A model generated the notes under the pieces. That model made no database searches. It saw nothing but the letters and a program-made list of their open reading frames with translations, and was not told the origin of the DNA. A program made the translations under genes and the position numbers. A stretch of DNA of 26,467 nt from a virus, in the UHGV virus genome UHGV-0118441; one strand, 5' to 3'. Within the stretch, counting starts at the first letter, position 1. Every line of letters begins with the position of its first letter. Positions 10 to 14,018 of this stretch are shown here, in pieces.

Positions 10-29
10 TTGTGTACATTTGTACACAA
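10..29. promoter_or_regulatory. Perfect 9-bp inverted repeat (TTGTGTACA-tt-TGTACACAA), candidate TetR-type operator
   Basis: Palindrome read directly, 20 bp upstream of the regulator ATG; TetR-family proteins usually autoregulate through such dyads. Confidence 0.4.
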
Positions 30-49
30 TTGCAGACAGAGGAAATGAC

Positions 50-586
50 ATGCGTCGCGCTAACGATCCGCAACGGCGAGAAAAAATTATCCAGGCCACG
101 CTGGAGGCGGTGAAACTTTACGGAATACATGCTGTTACGCACCGCAAAATTGCTACCCTTGCCGGGGTACCGTTGGGATCGATGACCTACTATTTTTCAG
201 GAATTGATGAGTTGTTGCTGGAGGCGTTCAGCAGTTTTACTGAGATTATGTCCCGGCAATATCAGGCATTTTTTAGCGATGTTAGTGATGCTCAAGGCGC
301 ATGCCAGGCTATCACCGATATGATCTACAGCTCACAGGTTGCAACGCCGGATAATATGGAGCTGATGTACCAGCTCTACGCGCTGGCTAGCCGAAAACCG
401 CTATTAAAAACGGTAATGCAAAACTGGATGCAGCGCAGTCAGCAAACGCTCGAACAATGGTTTGAACCCGGAACCGCCCGCGCGCTTGATGCGTTTATTG
501 AGGGGATGACGCTGCATTTTGTCACCGACCGTAAGCCGCTATCGCGCGAGGAGATTTTGAGGATGGTTGAGAGGGTTGCAGGGTAG
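50..586 (+). CDS. TetR/AcrR-family transcriptional regulator (host flank)
   Basis: ORF 20..586; N-terminal HTH-like segment ([38 protein letters not shown]) typical of the TetR family. ATG at 50 is preceded by GAGGA; the in-frame TTG at 20 is likely a caller artefact. About 178 aa. Confidence 0.8.
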
Positions 587-2138: not shown

Positions 2139-2708
2139 CTATTTAACATACTTGACTGTTAAACTTATAATTTTACCAATTATTTCAATGTCTTCTATCT
2201 TACATTCAAAGGCTCTGTTTCCACCCTCGACGAAGATTCTTCCACCGGGTAAACGAGTAATGTCACGGATCGTTATTTCGCCATCAATACTTATTACCCA
2301 TTTACCATCACGTATATCATCAAATTCCTTATCACAAATAAATTCAGAATTATTATCTGTGATTACAAAAAGATTCTTGAATGCCGACGGTAGAAATTCT
2401 CTATCGAAAATATAAAAACCGTCTTCACACAAGGCCCCATCAGATAATACATATTTAGCAACTTCCATAGTATTTGTATTACCTGAAGTTTGCTTTGAAC
2501 CATGCCCGGTTGTGAGCCAATTAAGCGAGGTGCCTGTTTCAAGGGCGCACTGGATTACCCATTCTGCTGGGAATGAGTCACGCATGTAGCGTGTGGCGAG
2601 TGTACTTTTAGAGATTCCTAAATGATCGCACAACGCCTGTCGAGTCTTGAATCCATAAGCTTCTACCATGCGCTCTATGGCGCCTCGTCCGCCTTTCTCC
2701 AAATTCAT
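2139..2708 (-). CDS. cI: CI-type immunity repressor (phage 186 CI-like, about 190 aa)
   Basis: ORF 2139..2714; N-terminal HTH (TRQALCDHLGISKSTLATRYMR), length and position upstream of int match 186 CI. Probable ATG at 2708 with a GGAG RBS. Confidence 0.8.
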   Translation of the reverse strand: MNLEKGGRGAIERMVEAYGFKTRQALCDHLGISKSTLATRYMRDSFPAEWVIQCALETGTSLNWLTTGHGSKQTSGNTNTMEVAKYVLSDGALCEDGFYIFDREFLPSAFKNLFVITDNNSEFICDKEFDDIRDGKWVISIDGEITIRDITRLPGGRIFVEGGNRAFECKIEDIEIIGKIISLTVKYVK

Positions 2709-4411: not shown

Positions 4412-4638
4412 TGGCTGATGCAATGGATCTCGTACAGCAGCGCGTTGAAGAAGAACGCCAACGCCATATCCGTGCTGCCCGTGCCAAAACGCCGGGCGTG
4501 TCCCGCGTGCTTTGCATTGAGTGTGAAGCGCCAATTCCGCCAGCACGCCGCCGTGCCATTCCGGGTGTGCAGCTTTGCATTACCTGTCAGGAAATCGCAG
4601 AGCTGAAAGGCAAACATTACAACGGAGGTGCTGTATGA
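4411..4638 (+). CDS. TraR/DksA-family C4 zinc-finger protein (75 aa)
   Basis: CIECEAPIPPARRRAIPGVQLCITC: four Cys in the C-x2-C-x17-C-x2-C spacing characteristic of TraR/DksA zinc fingers. AGGAG RBS. Confidence 0.7.
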   Translation: MADAMDLVQQRVEEERQRHIRAARAKTPGVSRVLCIECEAPIPPARRRAIPGVQLCITCQEIAELKGKHYNGGAV

Positions 4639-5492
4639 GCACCATCCTGAAATGGGCGGGAAATAAAACTGCCATAATGTCCGAACTAAAAAAACATCTT
4701 CCTGCTGGCCCGCGACTGGTTGAACCTTTCGCGGGTTCCTGTGCTGTGATGATGGAGACGGATTATCCCAGCTATCTGGTTGCGGATATTAATCCTGATT
4801 TAATCAACCTCTATAAAAAGGTTGCCGCTGATTGTGAATCGTTTATATCTCGCGCCAGAGTTTTATTTGAGATCGCAAACAGGGAGGTGGCTTATTACAA
4901 CATAAGGCAGGAGTTTAATTACTCAACTGAAATTACTGATTTCATGAAAGCGGTATATTTCCTGTATCTCAATCGTCACGGTTACCGTGGTTTATGTCGC
5001 TATAACAAGAGCGGGCATTTCAACATTCCCTACGGTAATTATAAAAATCCGTATTTCCCTGAAAAAGAAATTCGCGCATTTGCAGAAAAGGCCCAGCGAG
5101 CAACGTTTATCTGCGCCAGCTTTGATGAAACGCTGGCGATGTTGAAGGCGGGGGATGTGGTGTATTGCGATCCGCCGTATGACGGTACGTTTTCCGGCTA
5201 TCACACTGACGGCTTCACTGAAGATGACCAGTATCACCTGGCATCTGTTCTTGAACATCGGTCATCAGAAGGACATCCGGTCATTGTTTCTAACAGTGAC
5301 ACATCCCTGATCCGTTCGCTGTATCGCAATTTTACTCACCACTACATCAAGGCAAAACGCAGCATCGGTGTGGCAGCTGGCGAGGGTAAATCAGCAACAG
5401 AAATCATTGCTGTTTCCGGGCCGCGCTGCTGGGTGGGATTTGATTATTCGCGTGGCGTGGATAGTTCTGCCGTGTACGGAGTACGTGCATGA
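4635..5492 (+). CDS. Dam-type (D12 class) N6-adenine DNA methyltransferase
   Basis: ORF 4575..5492; ATG at 4635 with a GGAGGTG RBS ([12 protein letters not shown]...). Cofactor-binding motif FAGSCAV and catalytic DPPY ([10 protein letters not shown]). Start and stop both overlap neighbours as ATGA. Confidence 0.85.
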
Positions 5493-7903
5493 GTCATGCC
5501 GATATGAACAACTGCTGCGGCTTTAACGAAGCTGCCGCATCGTTCTCATGGAACAGCTCGAAAAAGGCCATTAACCCTTATCTGGACCCGGTGGAAGTTG
5601 CGCCGGTTTCTACGCTTTCAAACCTGATCACTCTGTACGCTGCCGATAACGAGCAGGAACAGCTGCGCCGTGAGGCGCTGAGTGATCAGGTCTGGGAGCG
5701 TTATTTCTTTAATGAATCCCGTGATCCTGTCCAGCGCGAAATGGAACAGGATAAGCTCATTAGTCGGGCAAAGCTGGCGCATGAGCAGCAGCGTTTTAAT
5801 CCGGATATGGTCATTCTGGCGGACGTCAACGCCCAGCCTTCCCATATCAGCAAGCCGCTGATGCAACGTATTGAATACTTCAGCAGCCTGGGCAGGCCAA
5901 AGGCTTATTCCCGCTATTTACGTGAGACGATTAAGCCATGTCTGGAACGACTGGAGCATGTACGCGACAGTCAGCTATCTGCATCTTTTCGCTTTATGGC
6001 AAGCCATGAAGGGCTGGACGGCCTGCTGATCCTGCCTGAAATGAGTCAGGATCAGGTGAAACGCCTGTCCACCCTGGTAGCTGCGCATATGAGTATGTGC
6101 CTTGATGCCGCTTGTGGCGATTTGTATGCCACCGATGACGTTAAGCCAGAAGAAATCCGCAATACATGGGAAAGGGTGGCAGCGGAAACCCTGCGTCTGG
6201 ATGTCATCCCGCCTGCGTTTGAGCAACTCCGTCGGAAAAGAAACCGCCGTAAACCCGTGCCCTATGAACTCATTCCGGGTTCGCTGGCGCGTATGTTGTG
6301 CGCCGACTGGTGGTATCGGAAATTATGGAAGATGCGTTGCGAATGGCGGGAAGAGCAGTTGCGTGCTGTCTGCCTTGTCAGCAAAAAAGCATCTCCCTAT
6401 GTCAGCTATGAAGCCGTGTTGCATAAACGTGAGCAGCGCCGTAAGTCGCTGGAGTTTTTCCGTTCTCATGAACTGGTGAACGAAGACGGCGACACGCTAG
6501 ACATGGAGGATGTGGTAAACGCCAGCAGCAGCAACCCTGCGCATCGCCGCAATGAGATGATGGCCTGTGTTAAAGGTCTGGAGCTTATCGCGGAAATGCG
6601 CGGTGACTGCGCCGTTTTCTACACCATCACCTGTCCGTCACGTTTCCATTCCACGCTAAATAACGGCAGGCCCAACCCGACCTGGACAAATGCGACGGTA
6701 AGACAAAGCAGCGATTATCTGGTCGGTATGTTTGCTGCATTTCGTAAGGCGATGCACAAAGCCGGGTTGCGCTGGTATGGCGTGCGGGTGGCTGAGCCGC
6801 ATCACGACGGCACAGTTCACTGGCACCTGTTGTGTTTCATGCGCAAAAAAGACCGCCGCGCCATTACAGCATTGTTGCGTAAGTTTGCTATCCGTGAAGA
6901 CCGCGAGGAGCTGGGCAATAACACGGGGCCGCGCTTTAAGTCTGAGCTGATTAACCCGCGCAAAGGAACGCCGACAAGCTACATAGCGAAATACATCAGT
7001 AAGAACATTGACGGGCGTGGTCTGGCTGGCGAGATCAGCAAGGAAACGGGTAAATCTCTGCGTGATAACGCTGAATACGTGAATGCCTGGGCGTCTTTGC
7101 ATCGTGTTCAGCAATTCCGCTTCTTTGGCATTCCGGGGCGTCAGGCTTACCGTGAACTGCGATTGCTGGCTGGTCAGGCGGTAAGGCAAAAGGGGGACAA
7201 AAAAGCAGGTGCGCCGGTACTGGATAACCCGCGCCTTGATGCCATCCTGGCTGCTGCTGATGCTGGTTGTTTTGCCACCTACATCATGAAGCAGGGCGGC
7301 GTACTGGTTCCCCGTAAATATCACCTCATCAGAACCGCTTATGAAATCAACGAAGAGCCGACCGCCTATGGCGATCACGGCATTCGTATTTATGGCATCT
7401 GGTCACCCATTGCAGAGGGCAAGATCTGCACTCATGCAGTGAAGTGGAAAATGGTTCGTAAAGCCGTTGACGTTCAGGAGGCGGCAGCCGACCAGGGCGC
7501 TTGCGCCCCTTGGACTCGTGGCAATAACTGTCCCCTTGCTGAAAATTTGAACCAACAGGAGAAAGATAAATCAGCTGATGGAGACACCAGAACGGACATT
7601 ACCCGCATGGATGACAAGGAGTTGCACGATTACCTGCACAGTATGAGCAAAAAAGAGCGCCGGGAACTGGCAGCAAGGTTACGCCAGGTGAAGCCGAAAA
7701 GGCGTAAAGACTACAAACAGCGAATTACAGATCATCAGCATCAGCAGCTCGTCTATGAACTGAAGTCCAGAGGATTTGATGGCAGCGAGAAAGAGGTCGA
7801 TTTACTCCTTCGCGGTGGCAGTATTCCGTCAGGAGCAGGCCTGCGTATTTTCTATCGGAACCAGCGTTTGCAGGAAGATGATAAGTGGCGGAACCTGTAT
7901 TAA
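5489..7903 (+). CDS. A: Replication initiation protein A (P2 gpA-family rolling-circle endonuclease), 804 aa
   Basis: Size and position; HUH-like metal-binding motif (VHWHLLCF) and paired active-site tyrosines (YIAKYISK) as in P2/186 A proteins. Confidence 0.9.
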
Positions 7904-7995
7904 TTACGCAGGTTAACAATTCGTGCTCTTAATAATACCAGACATATCAGGCTGATGAACGTAAAAAAACGTTTTACATCAGTAAGATTATTATA

Positions 7996-8015
7996 TACTG
8001 TAAATATAAACAGTG
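7996..8015. promoter_or_regulatory. LexA (SOS) box TACTGTAAATATAAACAGTG
   Basis: Perfect CTGT-N8-ACAG with an AT-rich spacer, 42 bp upstream of the small ORF at 8057. A degenerate second copy may overlap at about 8013-8032. Confidence 0.6.
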
Positions 8016-8056
8016 GTTATGTATACAGTATTTCTTGTGGTGTTATAGGAGGAAAG

Positions 8057-8245
8057 ATGCAGGACTATTTTTTGGAGTCTTTGAAGCTCCAGCGCATTGA
8101 TTTTTTTCTTAAGCTTGTAGCGGCTAGTGAGTGTAGTGATGAAGAGAAAGGGCTGGCTCTGCAGTGGGTTTCTGAACTGACAGATGAACTCATGGCAAAA
8201 ATCAGAAGCCACGAATACAACCGCTCAATGGATGTCATCAGCTGA
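8057..8245 (+). CDS. Small SOS-controlled protein (62 aa); possible Tum-like antirepressor by position
   Basis: ORF 7955..8245; ATG at 8057 with an AGGAGG RBS, immediately downstream of the LexA box. No homology recognised; the antirepressor idea is by analogy with the 186 LexA-controlled tum operon. Confidence 0.45.
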   Translation: MQDYFLESLKLQRIDFFLKLVAASECSDEEKGLALQWVSELTDELMAKIRSHEYNRSMDVIS

Positions 8246-8255
8246 GGTGACTTTT

Positions 8256-8489
8256 ATGCGCATTGAAATAATGATCGATAAAGAGCAGAAGATTAGCCAG
8301 TCTACCCTGGACGCCCTTGAATCCGAGCTTTACCGCAATCTGCGCCCCCTGTATCCCAAAACGGTAATTCGCATTCGCAAAGGTAGCTCTAACGGTGTGG
8401 AACTAACCGGACTGCAACTGGATGAAGAAAGAAAACAAGTGATGAAAATTATGCAGAAGGTGTGGGAGGACGACAGCTGGCTGCATTAA
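8256..8489 (+). CDS. dinI: DinI-family protein (77 aa)
   Basis: ORF 8184..8489; ATG at 8256 with a GAGGTG RBS. MRIEIMIDKEQ...VMKIMQKVWEDDSWLH matches the DinI N-terminal MRIEV motif and acidic W-rich C-terminal helix. Confidence 0.8.
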   Translation: MRIEIMIDKEQKISQSTLDALESELYRNLRPLYPKTVIRIRKGSSNGVELTGLQLDEERKQVMKIMQKVWEDDSWLH

Positions 8490-8895
8490 GAAACATTGCC
8501 CCCAGGAGGATTCATTCTGATGGGGGCTAGTTTGGGTAGCGAGTGAAACGAGGCGTAAGGTGGGCGGCCATTTTGATAAGTGATTGTACGATTTGTGTTG
8601 TGAGTTCAACGGGTCGATGCAACGCTATCCTTAATCAAGGGGACGTTGCTCATACCCATCGATGCAATGAAAATCCATACTCATGGGGAAGACCAGAATG
8701 TCCCTGCCTTTTTCATTTTGTTCAGCACATGCACTATGGCCATTTCCTTCCCAAGCTAGCTATCGTAATCACTCAGCGTCAGTAAACTACTGAAAAATTG
8801 TTTTACCTTGTATATCAATAATGCCAAATCATACCCAAAAAATCGAAAATAATTAGATCGACAGGCAGAAGGCAATGTGAATAATCTTAAAAACC

Positions 8896-8925
8896 TTGAC
8901 TGCCAGTGAGGTTTGGTTCTATAAA
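8896..8925 (+). promoter_or_regulatory. Candidate sigma70 promoter for darTG (TTGACT-18 bp-TATAAA)
   Basis: Hexamers read directly, about 30 bp upstream of the darT ATG. Confidence 0.45.
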
Positions 8926-8956
8926 TAGACTTACGAATTTGAAAGGATGAGTTGAA

Positions 8957-9538
8957 ATGAGCGAAAGGAAAAGAATTGAAGATCAGTATCTTCTCTATCA
9001 TTTAACATGTATGGATAATCTACCTAGTATTTTAGATACAGGATTAAGATCTCGTGCATCAGTAAAAGGTGAGTTTGTTGATGTGGCCGACGGTGAAATA
9101 ATAACAGGTCGCGAAGCATTAAATTTGCAAACAATGGTTCCTTTTCATTTCTTTACTAAGAATCCATTTGATGGAAGAGTCCTGAAAGATCATAAGGAAA
9201 AATCATTTTGTATTATTTCGGTTTGTCGGGCATTTGCCAAAGAAAATGGTTGGAAAGTTATCCCTAAACATCCATTATCCACCAGTTCTTTTATAGACCT
9301 CTTAGATTATGAACAAGGAATGGCCCAAATTGACTGGGAGCTAATGAATATAAGGGATTATAAAAATGCAGAATGCAAATCTGTATGTATGGCTGAGTGT
9401 TTATCAAGTGTAACGGTCGAGCCGAAAAATTTCCATTGCATCTTTGTCAAAAATGATAACGAAAAAAAATATGTTGAAGGGTTGATAAAACAACAAGGAT
9501 TAAGTATATTGATAACGATCAACACTTATATGTTCTAA
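8957..9538 (+). CDS. darT: DarT (DUF4433) ssDNA ADP-ribosyltransferase toxin, 193 aa
   Basis: N-terminal LYHLTCMDNLPSIL, central VPFHFF and C-terminal DWELMNIRDY...MAECL segments match the DarT family as I recall it (Thermus DarT IYHITHIDNL..IL, PFYF, QAEFLV with catalytic Glu). Followed 4 nt later by a macrodomain gene. Confidence 0.75.
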   Translation: MSERKRIEDQYLLYHLTCMDNLPSILDTGLRSRASVKGEFVDVADGEIITGREALNLQTMVPFHFFTKNPFDGRVLKDHKEKSFCIISVCRAFAKENGWKVIPKHPLSTSSFIDLLDYEQGMAQIDWELMNIRDYKNAECKSVCMAECLSSVTVEPKNFHCIFVKNDNEKKYVEGLIKQQGLSILITINTYMF

Positions 9539-9542
9539 TTCT

Positions 9543-10514
9543 ATGATTAAGTATGCAAGCGGAAATCTTCTAAACTCTACATCGCAAGCTCTTGTGAATG
9601 CTGTAAACTGCCAAGGAGTCATGGGAAAGGGTATTGCTTTGGCTTTTAAAGAAACTTTTCCCTATAATTTCGAAGTTTATAAGAGAGCATGCGCCACTGG
9701 TACAATGAAAATTGGACAGGTTTTAATTGTAGAGGAAAAGGGAAAAATAATTGTAAACTTTCCCACTAAAGATAGTTGGAGAAAAAAATCAACATATGAT
9801 TTTATCTCGCAAGGCCTTGAATCTTTAGCAAAAATTATAGATGAAAAAAAAATTACATCAATATCAATACCACCTTTAGGCTGTGGTAATGGGGGCCTCG
9901 ATTGGAATAAGGTTGAGGCTCTTATTTTAAAAACTTTTCAAAATTTAGATAATGTTGATGTGGTAATTTATCCGCCTGCAACTAACAATCAACTTTCAAA
10001 AAATAAAAATGTTATTAATGCTAAGCATCTTTTGGTTCACTACGCCTATGGAAAATTAAAAGTTAAGCAAAAATATTCCCTTTATACAGTTTTTTATATT
10101 TGCGAATGTATTGAGAAAGCAAATCTTTTTTTATTCGATTTTAAACATGGTCGGCCATACTCTTCTGAGTTAGAAAATATTATGAAGGATATAGCAAACC
10201 TTAAAGTTGAGTTGCAAGGAGATTTTGATGCTTTTATTGAAGATTATATTAATACTCATCAATCCAAAGAGTTACAAACCGAGTTTGGTAAACTAATCTC
10301 AACTTTAAATCCAAGTATAAGTTTGCTCAATGCTCTTAAAAATAAGATTGATTATACAGATAGCGTACATGTGATCACGAGAATTGCTAAAGAAAAAGAT
10401 CATGGCTTGCATATTGACAATTTCAAAGAATATGAAAATATTGTGCAGCATTTAATTAAAAATGGATTGGTAATCGAAGATATTTTTAACGAACTAAAAA
10501 TAAAGGGAAGTTAG
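9543..10514 (+). CDS. darG: DarG antitoxin, N-terminal TARG1-like macrodomain (ADP-ribosyl hydrolase), 323 aa
   Basis: N-terminus GNLL...ALVNAVNCQGVMGKGIALAF and later PPLGCGNGGLDW are hallmark macrodomain motifs of DarG/TARG1. Translationally coupled to darT. Confidence 0.8.
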   Translation: MIKYASGNLLNSTSQALVNAVNCQGVMGKGIALAFKETFPYNFEVYKRACATGTMKIGQVLIVEEKGKIIVNFPTKDSWRKKSTYDFISQGLESLAKIIDEKKITSISIPPLGCGNGGLDWNKVEALILKTFQNLDNVDVVIYPPATNNQLSKNKNVINAKHLLVHYAYGKLKVKQKYSLYTVFYICECIEKANLFLFDFKHGRPYSSELENIMKDIANLKVELQGDFDAFIEDYINTHQSKELQTEFGKLISTLNPSISLLNALKNKIDYTDSVHVITRIAKEKDHGLHIDNFKEYENIVQHLIKNGLVIEDIFNELKIKGS

Positions 10515-11164: not shown

Positions 11165-12229
11165 ATGGCAGAAAACGGACCTCGTGAAGACTTGGCGAAG
11201 CTGGTGTCCCATAAACTATTGGAAAGATTTAAGTGGAAGCAACACGGTCCGACCGATCATGATTTTCCGTGTACTGAACAAGAATTACACAAGCCAGCGG
11301 AAAAAACGCAAGACCACACACATCCAGTTGATATTGTCTTTCATTATAAAGATCCTTACTTAAATAAAATTGTTTATCTAAATACTGATTTGAAAAGTTA
11401 TTCAAAAGGGTCTTTAAATTCTAAAATGGTTGAAAATGCTTTAGATTCCTTAGCAAAAACTATTCATTGTGCGCAGAATAGTCAGGTATGGAAAAATCGC
11501 TATGAGACAACCATGTCTAAAAGTGAAGTACGAGGGTTACTTTTTGTATATAATCATGATAATGACTATAAGCATAATTTCTATGACTATTTTTATCCTC
11601 CTAAACCCAAAAAAGGGAAAAGACCTGCGGCAGTTAATTTAGACAGAGTAAATGTATCTGAAAATCAGCAAATACATATAATTGAGCCACGAACTATTAG
11701 TTATCTTATGTCTGTTGTTGCTGATATGAACGAAATGATTGCGGAAAATAAATTCCCGCGTGATGATTATGGGTTCTATTATCCTCAATTAATACTTCAT
11801 AAGGTTGTGACTGCAGAAGAATATCTTCCAGCTACAGTGGAAACTCTAACATCCCCCTACATGATAATTAAACATGGTCCAGTAATAGAATATAATAGAG
11901 CTAAAAAGGAGGACGAGCTGGTTTATCCTGAAGGGTTTATTGTTTATTACAACCGCTCCGGTAAAACAGACTTAGAGTTTAATTATTTATTAGATACTCT
12001 AGCTAACTACCAGATATTAAACTCAAAAAATAATATTAGAATTAGAGTAGCATGTATTGATAAAAGTGAGCACATACGGACTAATTTTATAAAAGCTATA
12101 GAAAAATTTTCATATCAGTGGGGATATGATGAATCTATGAAGGAAAAATTATTATCTATTGAGCTATATATTGTGCCTCTATCTCGAGAGCAATATTTAA
12201 CAGAAGAAAGATCATGGGATGTTAAATAA
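11165..12229 (+). CDS. Unknown protein, 354 aa, first gene of AT-rich cargo operon; possible PD-(D/E)xK-like nuclease motif
   Basis: ATG with an AAGGAGA RBS 8 nt upstream; AT-rich codon usage. HPVD-IVFH ... KIVYLNTDLK is compatible with a PD-x(n)-D-x-K signature. No other motif recognised. Confidence 0.6.
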   Translation: MAENGPREDLAKLVSHKLLERFKWKQHGPTDHDFPCTEQELHKPAEKTQDHTHPVDIVFHYKDPYLNKIVYLNTDLKSYSKGSLNSKMVENALDSLAKTIHCAQNSQVWKNRYETTMSKSEVRGLLFVYNHDNDYKHNFYDYFYPPKPKKGKRPAAVNLDRVNVSENQQIHIIEPRTISYLMSVVADMNEMIAENKFPRDDYGFYYPQLILHKVVTAEEYLPATVETLTSPYMIIKHGPVIEYNRAKKEDELVYPEGFIVYYNRSGKTDLEFNYLLDTLANYQILNSKNNIRIRVACIDKSEHIRTNFIKAIEKFSYQWGYDESMKEKLLSIELYIVPLSREQYLTEERSWDVK

Positions 12230-13305
12230 TGAGTGAAATACACAGTGTTACAGACAAAGCTTTATACGAGGCTTTATGCCAATCACGTGTCACTGATAAT
12301 GATATGGTGGAATTGTTTTTATCCCGTGGAATTTTGGTGTCAAAAAAAACTGAGCGTAAGCAACTAGCAAAAAATTTCTCAAAGCTCACTCATGATTATT
12401 ATTTGCATCAGAAAATTTCTGGAATATTTGGAGGTTTTTTAAGGCGAGAGAAATCTACGGCTATAGTTATTAAGAATAATATTGATAAGCCACTACTTGT
12501 TAAGGCTGCTAATAAGCTTAAAGATCAGCTGGAAAGCGAAGATGATATATGTCATGTAATCAGTGATAAAGATTCTATTAAAATTAGCATTACATACTTA
12601 TCAACCAATTTTGGTAAAAGTGAATTTAACCAAGTAGAGAAGAAAACTGCTGTTTTTGAAATCGAGTCCCTTTCGGATGGTTTTTCAATTCGTAGGCCTG
12701 ATAGTGAACAAGCTGAGATTTATAATAAAAAACTACTAAGTATTATCGAACAGGTTATACAAAAGGAAAAAGATATAGAAGCAACGACTTTAGATACAGA
12801 AGAAATCAACCTCGCGAACATCGATGACGCAGATAAAAGAACAGAATTTTTTAAGCGGCTCATCAATGGGTTGGATGGATATGTTTTAGATGATGTTACG
12901 GATGTTTATATCTACCATCCTAAACCTGCTGTCATGGAGGAGGAAGATGGGGATTCTGAAACAGGAATACATATTAGCAAAGCATCTTTGAAAGGAGAGG
13001 GGGTGCTTAAATCTGAAGAGTTGAATTCTTTGTATGATAGAGGGTTTTATATTTGGAAAATAAGATGGAGAATAAAGGATAAATCTACTACTCCAGATCT
13101 TTATGATTTTGAAGCTCAGTTTAGTGATCCTTTAGAGTTTAAGAGCTTTTCATATATTTCTAGAGGGGTGAGGAAATATAAAGGTGCCGGAGAATATAAT
13201 AAAAATCCGAGCCAATTACCGGATGATGAAGAATATCATTTTAAAAGACTTATTGAAAAAACGGCGCGTTCAATTATAATGGATATTAATAAAGAGTATG
13301 AGTGA
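12229..13305 (+). CDS. Unknown protein, 358 aa, second gene of cargo operon
   Basis: ATG overlaps the stop of the previous gene (TAATG). Highly charged, Lys/Glu/Asp-rich; no Walker A, HEPN, HTH or other motif recognised. Confidence 0.6.
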   Translation: MSEIHSVTDKALYEALCQSRVTDNDMVELFLSRGILVSKKTERKQLAKNFSKLTHDYYLHQKISGIFGGFLRREKSTAIVIKNNIDKPLLVKAANKLKDQLESEDDICHVISDKDSIKISITYLSTNFGKSEFNQVEKKTAVFEIESLSDGFSIRRPDSEQAEIYNKKLLSIIEQVIQKEKDIEATTLDTEEINLANIDDADKRTEFFKRLINGLDGYVLDDVTDVYIYHPKPAVMEEEDGDSETGIHISKASLKGEGVLKSEELNSLYDRGFYIWKIRWRIKDKSTTPDLYDFEAQFSDPLEFKSFSYISRGVRKYKGAGEYNKNPSQLPDDEEYHFKRLIEKTARSIIMDINKEYE

Positions 13306-13313
13306 GATAACAA

Positions 13314-14018
13314 ATGAAAACACTGGATAAAATTAAGTGGAGCAGAGTGAAGTTATCAATAACCTTCTCTGAACTAATTGATTATTTTAAACGTAATTCT
13401 TATGATGAAAGTAAAGGTTATGGTTATACTTTTGTGAATTTTACTGAACATGAAGTTTCCGCTTCTTATGTTGAAAAGTCATTGCGTACAGAAGTTATTG
13501 TATCGCCCGCGGGAGATGAGATAGAACAAGATTTTTTAGAGTATGAAACCATAAAATTTGCATTAAAGCCCGTATCTAAAAATCTCTCTTTATTGGCTAT
13601 TTTTAATCCCCCTAAATCTATAAAGAAATTGACGGATAGACTTAGTGTAGATTTCAATTATAGGGTTGGATTTGGTTCAATTACCTTAAATTTAAAGGAG
13701 TATATAAATTATCTAAGTTTACAGCATTCAATAAGTCTATTACATATTGATAAAATTAAAGTTAGCAATGTTGTGTTAAATGGGAACTCCAAGGCCTCGG
13801 TTGAGATAACTTCCACAAAAAATGCATTGTTAGAGCTAGAAAGTATTTTTACTAACAAAAAATATAATATAGATAAAGTTAGGTTGCATTGTTTGATTTA
13901 CGGGGAACCTTCTTTTGTTGAGCTTTCAAAAAGCGCTTTTATTAATTCAGATTCTAATCATCTGGATTTTTACTCCGACTTCCTCATTCAGCAATTATCT
14001 AATGATGAATTTCGTTAA
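13314..14018 (+). CDS. Unknown protein, 234 aa, third gene of cargo operon
   Basis: ATG 8 nt after the previous stop; same strand and AT-rich composition. No recognisable motif. Confidence 0.55.
   Translation: MKTLDKIKWSRVKLSITFSELIDYFKRNSYDESKGYGYTFVNFTEHEVSASYVEKSLRTEVIVSPAGDEIEQDFLEYETIKFALKPVSKNLSLLAIFNPPKSIKKLTDRLSVDFNYRVGFGSITLNLKEYINYLSLQHSISLLHIDKIKVSNVVLNGNSKASVEITSTKNALLELESIFTNKKYNIDKVRLHCLIYGEPSFVELSKSAFINSDSNHLDFYSDFLIQQLSNDEFR

What the first reader, a model, noticed from the sequence alone, without database searches (positions are those of the whole stretch)
7960..8489. LexA-boxed two-gene SOS operon: small unknown protein plus DinI homologue
A perfect CTGT-N8-ACAG LexA box sits about 40 bp upstream of a 62-aa ORF with a strong RBS, followed by a DinI-family gene. 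In phage 186, prophage induction is driven by a LexA-repressed operon encoding the Tum antirepressor. The small ORF is therefore a candidate SOS-induced antirepressor acting on the 186-type CI encoded at 2139..2708, although it is much shorter than 186 Tum and I see no sequence similarity. The DinI homologue could modulate RecA during induction.
Basis: partly seen in the sequence, partly recalled or inferred. Interest (0 to 1): 0.5.

Follow-up and report, generated by a model that had tools for sequence, protein, structure and literature searches.

The report
Split Tum antirepressor SOS operon
This is the DNA-damage switch of a P2/186-family prophage: a LexA-repressed two-gene operon whose 62-residue first protein is the known Tum antirepressor and whose second is a DinI homologue, so the finding is real and correctly read but already known.

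Summary
A perfect CTGT-N8-ACAG LexA box (7998-8013) lies 43 nt upstream of a 62-aa ORF (8057-8245, Shine-Dalgarno AGGAGG). A DinI-family gene (8256-8489) follows 10 nt later.

The DinI gene matches Tum's C-terminal half. This is the split tumA/tumB arrangement annotated in PSP3 and described for Fels-2.

The 62-aa protein, the DinI protein and the CI repressor are each 100% identical to those of prophage DuoHS in E. coli HS. There, an in-frame deletion of this gene ("tum", ECHS_RS04495) or a lexA(Ind-) allele abolishes mitomycin-C induction (Nat Microbiol 2025).

Three refinements:
- The operator has two overlapping LexA boxes and aligns base for base with colicin and pesticin promoters.
- A LexA box is present upstream in 36 of 38 species-level relatives.
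- dinI is missing in 15 of those 38.

The module occurs in 1125 of 5426 complete E. coli genomes, where the small protein is listed as "hypothetical protein".

The parts
7973..7978 (+). Probable -35 hexamer TTTACA of the SOS promoter (tentative)
   Evidence: Read from the sequence. It lies 17 nt upstream of TACTGT. This is the layout of the annotated 186 p95 promoter, whose -10 is the TACTGT left end of its LexA box. The consensus scan did not call it, because the -10 matches only 3 of 6.
7996..8001 (+). Probable -10 hexamer TACTGT, overlapping LexA box 1 (tentative)
   Evidence: By analogy with the 186 p95 annotation, where the -10 at 29044-29049 is TACTGT and the LexA site is 29044-29063.
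7996..8015 (+). LexA box 1, TACTGTAAATATAAACAGTG (core CTGT-N8-ACAG at 7998-8013)
   Evidence: It matches the consensus TACTGTATATATATACAGTA at 17 of 20 positions (on the identical operator of L007). A box is conserved upstream of homologues in 36 of 38 loci.
8011..8030 (+). LexA box 2, CAGTGGTTATGTATACAGTA (core GTGG-N8-ACAG at 8013-8028), overlapping box 1 by one base
   Evidence: It matches the consensus at 15 of 20 positions (my count on the sequence). It aligns column for column with box 2 of the colicin R, colicin N and pesticin promoters and with the single LexA box of 186 and PSP3. The double layout is present in 23 of 38 relatives.
8047..8052 (+). Shine-Dalgarno AGGAGG for the small gene
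   Evidence: A GGAGG-type motif is conserved in nearly all relatives.
8057..8245 (+). tum (tumA-type) gene: 62-aa SOS-induced antirepressor, homologous to the N-terminal half of 186 Tum
   Evidence: Sequence homology: hhalign A6 vs A5 gives probability 96.3%, E 1.7e-9, residues 2-44 to 2-44, supported by PHROG cross-matches. Genetics: 100% identical to ECHS_RS04495, whose in-frame deletion abolishes induction. Structure: AF2 predicts a helical hairpin with pLDDT 87.
8256..8489 (+). dinI-family gene (tumB-type), 77 aa, starting 10 nt after the tum stop
   Evidence: Pfam DinI E 6.6e-23. It is 41% identical to 186 Tum residues 71-145, E 3e-24, and aligns full-length with PSP3 TumB. It is present directly downstream in 23 of 38 relatives.
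8498..8527 (+). GC-rich hairpin after dinI with a weak U tract; possible partial terminator marking the end of the conserved module
   Evidence: RNA fold gives -21.3 kcal/mol but z is only -1.4, and the terminator scan did not call it. Similarity to Fels-2 ends at about 8487. 186 has a partial terminator, t95a, at the equivalent place.
2139..2708 (-). 186-type CI immunity repressor, the inferred target of the antirepressor
   Evidence: Phage_CI_repr plus Phage_CI_C domains. It is 33% identical to 186 CI, E 8e-38, and 100% identical to the DuoHS CI.

Best explanation
The region is the SOS operon of a Fels-2/DuoHS-type (Felsduovirus, P2/186 family) prophage of E. coli, integrated next to rcdA.

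Proposed mechanism:
1. In a lysogen, LexA occupies a promoter-overlapping operator made of two overlapping SOS boxes and keeps the operon off.
2. DNA damage activates RecA, LexA cleaves itself, and the operon is transcribed.
3. The first product, a 62-residue helical-hairpin protein, is the antirepressor. It is the stand-alone equivalent of the N-terminal half of 186 Tum (PSP3 TumA). It binds the 186-type CI repressor, stops it binding its operators, and so switches the prophage to lytic growth.
4. The second product is a DinI homologue, equivalent to the C-terminal half of 186 Tum (PSP3 TumB). It is an accessory modulator of RecA/SOS activity and is not needed for the switch itself.

What is shown and what is inferred:
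- Shown genetically, for identical proteins in E. coli HS: the small gene and cleavable LexA are both required for induction.
- Shown here by sequence: homology to Tum, conservation of the operator, and the 186-type CI.
- Inferred by homology to 186: direct binding of CI.
- Inferred from the operator's resemblance to colicin promoters: binding of two LexA dimers.
For: Family and context:
- The region is 96.9% identical to Fels-2.
- PSP3 annotates the same gene pair as tumA ('similar to 5' end of 186 tum; UV induction of prophage') and tumB ('similar to dinI and 3' end of 186 tum').
- Lemire 2011 states that Fels-2 and PSP3 have tum split by a stop codon, and that the upstream PSP3 gene carries the antirepressor activity.

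Homology of the 62-aa protein to Tum:
- hhalign against the Tum N-terminal family gives probability 96.3%, E 1.7e-9, ungapped and in register from the N terminus.
- 186 Tum residues 7-44 hit the window protein's own PHROG family at 2.4e-5. Both proteins also hit the bridging family phrog_8554, at 1e-8 and 1.4e-11.
- DinI half: Pfam E 6.6e-23, and 41% identity to Tum residues 71-145.

Target: the CI has the 186-type domain pair and is 33% identical to 186 CI.

Genetics:
- The Tum, DinI and CI proteins are each 100% identical to those of DuoHS, and the promoter region is 98% identical.
- In DuoHS, an in-frame deletion of ECHS_RS04495 or a lexA(Ind-) allele abolishes mitomycin-C-induced lysis and virion formation.

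Operator:
- A LexA box is present upstream in 36 of 38 relatives, against 0.055 expected.
- The double box aligns with the colicin R, colicin N and pesticin promoters.
- Colicin operators of this form bind two LexA dimers (PMC2994835).

DinI as accessory: dinI is absent from 15 of 38 loci that keep the small gene and its LexA box. The 186 record describes the DinI-like truncated Tum products as modulators of SOS induction.
Against: - No direct evidence was found, here or in the papers I could read, that this 62-aa protein binds CI. That step rests on about 20% identity to the Tum N-terminal half and on a personal communication about PSP3 TumA.
- Pairwise BLASTP finds no similarity to 186 Tum or PSP3 TumA. 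A profile built only from close relatives gives a weak P of 4.8e-4.
- LexA binding to either box has not been measured for this operator, and box 2 has GTG instead of CTG in its left half.
- The promoter hexamers are assigned by analogy; the consensus scan does not call them.
- The DuoHS experiment shows the gene is necessary, not that it is sufficient.
Confidence: 0.9

Rival explanations
1. The small protein is required for induction but does not act on CI. It might instead act on LexA, RecA, Apl or CII, or serve as a chaperone or activator of DinI, so it would not be a true antirepressor.
For: No CI-binding data exist for this protein. It is only about 20% identical to the Tum N-terminal half. 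The Phollow legend says only that it inhibits 'pro-lysogenic regulators'.
Against: It is homologous, in register, to the part of Tum that is not DinI-like. The partner CI has the 186 architecture. PSP3 TumA is reported to carry the antirepressor activity. The small gene persists without dinI in 15 of 38 loci, so it does not work through DinI. SOS reporter activity is normal in the delta-tum strain, so it does not act on LexA or RecA signalling.
Confidence: 0.06
2. The LexA box is a chance match in AT-rich intergenic DNA, and the operon is controlled by something other than LexA.
For: 25 of 100 shuffles of the window contain at least one CTGT-N8-ACAG. No sigma-70 promoter is called by the scan.
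Against: A box is present at the same place in 36 of 38 species-level relatives, against 0.055 expected. The operator aligns with known LexA operators of 186, the colicins and pesticin. The lexA(Ind-) allele blocks induction of the prophage that carries a 98% identical control region.
Confidence: 0.02
3. DinI, not the small protein, is the functional core (for example by tuning RecA so that another repressor is cleaved), and the small ORF is a leader peptide or translational coupler.
For: The genes are 10 nt apart and probably translationally coupled. A weak hairpin spans the tum stop codon and the dinI Shine-Dalgarno.
Against: dinI is absent in 15 of 38 loci. The small protein is conserved at 82-100% identity across genera, with a confident fold prediction. 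The in-frame deletion left dinI in place and still abolished induction. The hairpin is not conserved.
Confidence: 0.02

Closest known systems
tum of E. coli HS prophage DuoHS (ECHS_RS04495) with its DinI neighbour ECHS_RS04500
   Same: The Tum, DinI and CI proteins are each 100% identical, and the promoter/operator is 98% identical. The integration site next to rcdA is the same. The gene was shown genetically to be needed for LexA-dependent induction.
   Different: Two substitutions in the N8 spacer of box 2. The cargo downstream of dinI differs: DarTG plus 3HP here, other hypothetical proteins in HS.
Fels-2 STM2728 / STM2726.1 (Salmonella LT2)
   Same: The 62-aa protein is 97% identical, the DNA is 96.9% identical, and the double-box operator is the same. 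Fels-2 is described in the literature as having tum split in two.
   Different: The record annotates STM2728 only as 'hypothetical protein'. The downstream cargo is different.
PSP3 tumA / tumB
   Same: The same split architecture in the same genome position after gene A: a small TumA, then a DinI-like TumB. TumB aligns full-length with the window's DinI protein.
   Different: TumA belongs to a different subfamily (phrog_1993). It is related to the window protein only at profile level, and BLASTP finds nothing. The operator has a single LexA box.
Phage 186 Tum (146 aa) and the p95 SOS operon
   Same: It is LexA-repressed, lies downstream of gene A, and acts on a 186-type CI. Its N-terminal half is homologous to the 62-aa protein and its C-terminal half to the DinI gene. 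The promoter -10 overlaps the LexA box in both.
   Different: In 186 the two halves are fused in one polypeptide, with internal starts that also give DinI-like products. There is a single LexA box. orf97 follows in the operon.
Colicin and pesticin promoters with two overlapping SOS boxes (colicin R cra, colicin N cna, pesticin pst)
   Same: The 35-bp operator ACTGT-N8-(A/C)CAGTGGTTAT-N3-TACAGTATTT is shared nearly base for base. This includes the one-base overlap and the GTGG left half of box 2. Operators of this form are known to bind two LexA dimers.
   Different: The downstream genes are unrelated. The -35 region and the spacing to the start codon differ.
Gifsy prophage dinI-gfoA/gftA operons
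   Same: A LexA-repressed operon that pairs a DinI homologue with a small antirepressor.
   Different: The gene order is reversed (dinI first). The antirepressor family and the repressor family are unrelated.

Membership tests
186 Tum / PSP3 TumA antirepressor family | Sequence homology to the non-DinI (N-terminal) half of 186 Tum | tested here: met
   hhalign gives probability 96.3%, E 1.7e-9, residues 2-44 to 2-44. PHROG cross-hits are in register. Pairwise BLASTP is negative.
186 Tum / PSP3 TumA antirepressor family | Gene placed after replication gene A in a P2/186-type genome that encodes a 186-type CI | tested here: met
   gpA ends at 7903. A gpA gene lies immediately upstream in nearly all relatives. 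The CI has Phage_CI_repr plus Phage_CI_C domains and is 33% identical to 186 CI.
186 Tum / PSP3 TumA antirepressor family | Expression repressed by LexA through an SOS box at the promoter | tested here: met
   At sequence level: boxes at 7998-8013 and 8013-8028, conserved in 36 of 38 relatives. Genetically, lexA(Ind-) blocks induction of the prophage with a 98% identical control region. Direct LexA binding could not be tested.
186 Tum / PSP3 TumA antirepressor family | Required for SOS induction of the prophage | not testable with these tools
   Published for the identical protein: an in-frame delta-tum in E. coli HS abolishes mitomycin-C-induced lysis (PMC12055606).
186 Tum / PSP3 TumA antirepressor family | Binds CI and prevents its operator binding | not testable with these tools
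   Known only for 186 Tum (Shearwin 1998, as cited). Inferred here by homology.
DinI family (PF06183) | Full-length match to the DinI model above the gathering score | tested here: met
   81.3 bits against a cut-off of 24.2, model positions 1-63 of 63. The NCBIfam DinI equivalog scores 42.7 against a cut-off of 111, so this is a family member and not the chromosomal DinI orthologue.
DinI family (PF06183) | Binds RecA filaments and modulates co-protease activity | not testable with these tools
   Inferred from family membership and from the 186 record's note 'modulates SOS induction'.
Colicin-type double overlapping SOS operator | Two LexA boxes offset by 15 bp that share one base pair | tested here: met
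   Column-for-column alignment with the cra, cna and pst promoters. blastn E 1e-6 over 46 bp.
Colicin-type double overlapping SOS operator | Simultaneous binding of two LexA dimers giving tight or delayed control | not testable with these tools
   Stated for colicin operators in PMC2994835. Not measured for this promoter.

The most novel reading that the evidence does not exclude
Fels-2/DuoHS-type prophages replaced the single LexA box of the 186/PSP3 tum promoter with a colicin-type operator that binds two LexA dimers. This would give them a higher or later DNA-damage threshold for induction than 186-type phages. In addition, because no strong terminator follows dinI, SOS transcription might read through into the variable defence cargo (here DarTG and 3HP), making those systems damage-inducible, as orf97 is in 186.
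Probability: 0.25. Interest if true: 0.35.

Novelty: already known. Interest (0 to 1): 0.15.

Why it matters
Biologically this is the textbook 186-type induction pathway in its split-gene form. The key experiment has already been published for an identical protein.

The practical value is for annotation. The 62-aa antirepressor has no Pfam or NCBIfam model. RefSeq lists it as 'hypothetical protein', although the module is present in 1125 of 5426 complete E. coli genomes, and every source name in the large protein database listing is 'hypothetical' or similar.

The profile link to Tum and the colicin-type double operator are small additions. They could help predict which P2-like prophages are SOS-inducible and how tightly they are held off.

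Tried and rejected
- Pairwise BLASTP of the 62-aa protein against 186 Tum and PSP3 TumA found nothing at E <= 100. Only profiles detect the relationship.
- Pfam and NCBIfam have no family for the small protein. The only Pfam hit was a sub-threshold chance match.
- A profile search of PDB sequences found nothing. Foldseek with the AF2 helical hairpin gave only generic helical hairpins, with E >= 0.96.
The close-relative alignment A4 was used instead.
- Bunny et al. 2002, the primary description of the Fels-2 tum region, is not held in the library. I relied on its citation in Lemire 2011.
- The terminator-like hairpin at 8234-8251, which spans the tum stop codon and the dinI Shine-Dalgarno, was considered as an attenuator. 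It was rejected because it is weak and not conserved in 20 related loci.
- The consensus promoter scan calls no sigma-70 promoter at the operator. The hexamers are assigned only by analogy with 186 p95.
- The 96-aa extended ORF from ATG 7955 was rejected as the gene. It starts upstream of the promoter, and its extension is not conserved.

Full report
**What is in the sequence**

The window is a P2/186-family prophage. Its parts, left to right, are:
- integrase at 691-1821;
- a CI repressor with Phage_CI_repr plus Phage_CI_C domains at 2139-2708, minus strand;
- CII, Dam methylase and the gpA replication endonuclease (5489-7903);
- a cargo region;
- the portal, terminase and capsid genes.

The stretch 7900-8560 is 96.9% identical to Salmonella phage Fels-2 and 95-100% identical to many E. 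coli and Klebsiella prophages.

- CTGTAAATATAAACAG at 7998-8013 is the only CTGT-N8-ACAG in the window.
- AGGAGG lies at 8047-8052.
- A 62-aa ORF runs from 8057 to 8245.
- A 77-aa DinI-family ORF at 8256-8489 starts 10 nt later (Pfam DinI E 6.6e-23).

**Is the LexA box more than chance?**

In this window alone it is not: 25 of 100 shuffles contain such a motif somewhere. The comparative evidence is decisive, though. I fetched 38 loci from different species that encode a relative of the small protein. In 36 of them a CTG-N10-CAG box lies within 110 nt upstream of the gene, against 0.055 expected from the flanks. One exception is cut off by a contig end, and the other has a decayed left box.

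**A second box**

It lines up with a second motif, GTGGTTATGTATACAG at 8013-8028, which shares one base with the first box.

A blastn search of the 56-bp operator against plasmids returned small mobilizable plasmids. The matches lie immediately upstream of the colicin R, colicin N and pesticin genes. The alignment is nearly base for base across ACTGT-N8-(A/C)CAGTGGTTAT...TACAGTATTT.

[quoted passage not shown] The double layout is present in 23 of the 38 relatives. The more distant Pantoea and Erwinia loci have a single box.

The likely promoter is TTTACA (7973-7978), then 17 nt, then TACTGT (7996-8001). This copies the annotated 186 p95 promoter, whose -10 is the TACTGT of its LexA box. The assignment rests on analogy, because the consensus scan does not call it.

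**What the small protein is**

Profiles disagree:
- The protein belongs to phrog_698 (E 5.9e-38). It also matches phrog_8554 (1e-8) and the PSP3 TumA family phrog_1993 (0.002).
- 186 Tum residues 7-44 match phrog_698 at 2.4e-5 and phrog_8554 at 1.4e-11, all in the same register.
- I built one alignment of diverse relatives from the exhaustive representative search and another of the 186 Tum N-terminal/TumA family. hhalign gives probability 96.3%, E 1.7e-9, with residues 2-44 aligned to 2-44 without gaps. A profile of close relatives only gave P 4.8e-4.

The DinI ORF is 41% identical to Tum residues 71-145 (E 3e-24). The two genes are therefore the two halves of 186 tum.

The PSP3 record annotates exactly this arrangement as tumA ("similar to 5' end of 186 tum; UV induction of prophage") and tumB ("similar to dinI and 3' end of 186 tum"). 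Lemire et al. 2011 state that Fels-2 and PSP3 have tum split by a stop codon, and that the upstream PSP3 gene carries the antirepressor activity.

AlphaFold2 predicts a two-helix hairpin (helices 2-23 and 28-61, mean pLDDT 87). It has no informative structural neighbour.

**Direct experimental support**

The 62-aa protein is 100% identical to ECHS_RS04495 of E. coli HS. The DinI protein and the CI repressor are also 100% identical to their HS counterparts. The control region is 98% identical, and the prophage sits next to rcdA in both.

The Phollow paper (Nat Microbiol 2025, PMC12055606) names ECHS_RS04495 "tum". It deleted the gene in frame by fusing the start and stop codons. [quoted passage not shown]

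It also shows that dinI, which was left in place, is not sufficient for induction.

**Role of DinI**

Among the 38 relatives, dinI follows the small gene at a 9-13 nt gap in 23 (two of them truncated). It is absent in 15 that keep the small gene and its LexA box. The 186 record describes the DinI-like internal-start products of tum as modulators of SOS induction. DinI is therefore best read as a dispensable modulator.

**Mechanism and confidence**

LexA holds the operon off, probably as two dimers on the overlapping boxes. DNA damage removes LexA. The small protein then inactivates the 186-type CI by binding it, and DinI tunes RecA.

- Requirement for the gene and for LexA cleavage: published genetics on identical proteins.
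- Homology, operator conservation and CI type: shown here.
- CI binding and two-dimer LexA binding: inferred.

I put 0.9 on this reading. The rivals are a non-CI target, a chance LexA box, and DinI as the functional core. Each is contradicted by at least two independent lines of evidence.

**Novelty**

This is already known. The additions made here are modest:
- a profile-level demonstration of the Tum relationship;
- the colicin-type double operator and its distribution;
- the dispensability of dinI;
- an annotation gap: the protein has no Pfam or NCBIfam family and is listed as "hypothetical protein" in RefSeq, although the module is present in 1125 of 5426 complete E. coli genomes.

**Surroundings**

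Similarity to Fels-2 stops at the dinI stop codon. What follows is variable cargo: DarT (8957-9538), DarG (9543-10514) and a three-gene Hp1/Hp2/Hp3 set (11165-14018), all matching PADLOC defence models.

Only a weak hairpin (8498-8527, z -1.4) separates dinI from this cargo. SOS read-through, as occurs into orf97 in 186, is therefore possible but untested.

Noticed in passing
window 8957-10514: A DarT (193 aa) and DarG (323 aa) toxin-antitoxin/anti-phage pair lies immediately downstream of the SOS operon. PADLOC gives DarT 1.7e-36 and DarG 2.8e-80; Pfam finds DarT and Macro domains. A promoter-like site at 8858-8885 precedes darT.
   Followed up: partly
window 11165-14018: Three consecutive genes (354, 358 and 234 aa) have no Pfam domains but match the PADLOC models Hp1, Hp2 and Hp3 (3.2e-62, 1.5e-40, 3.1e-14). 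From memory this is the '3HP' candidate defence system of P2 hotspots. Together with DarTG it fills the variable cargo slot between tum/dinI and the portal gene.
   Followed up: partly
window 8490-8956: No convincing terminator separates dinI from the cargo. There is only a GC-rich hairpin at 8498-8527 with a poor U tract (z -1.4). SOS read-through into darTG is conceivable, as with the partial terminator t95a and orf97 in 186.
   Followed up: no
proteins P0267, P0269, P0273, P0276, P0282, P0289, P0293, P0298, P0300, P0301: Distant relatives of the small antirepressor share a C-terminal tail that the window protein lacks: roughly K-(N/S)-P-Q-x-G-G, then a glycine-rich stretch, ending in (L/F)-Q at the very C terminus. 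Its meaning is unknown.
   Followed up: no
window 7955-8245: Gene callers often extend the small ORF to 96 aa (also 92 or 87 aa) from an upstream ATG that lies before the promoter and LexA boxes. Many database entries carry this spurious N-terminal extension.
   Followed up: yes
window 8234-8251: A terminator-like hairpin (GTCATC...GGTGAC followed by TTTTAT) spans the tum stop codon and the dinI Shine-Dalgarno. It is weak and not conserved in related loci, so it is probably not functional.
   Followed up: yes
window 20-586 and 691-1821: The left end of the window is the host gene rcdA (99% identical to E. coli HS RcdA), followed by the prophage integrase. The prophage therefore occupies the same chromosomal site as DuoHS in E. 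coli HS.
   Followed up: yes
window 4575-5492: A D12-class DNA adenine methylase gene (Pfam E 1.2e-76) lies directly upstream of gpA and overlaps it, as in Fels-2 and DuoHS.
   Followed up: no
window 2139-2708 (-): The CI C-terminal domain gives a sub-threshold match to Peptidase_S24 (E 0.008, 16.3 bits against a cut-off of 23.3). This may reflect a distant fold relationship to LexA-type repressors, although induction here goes through an antirepressor.
   Followed up: no
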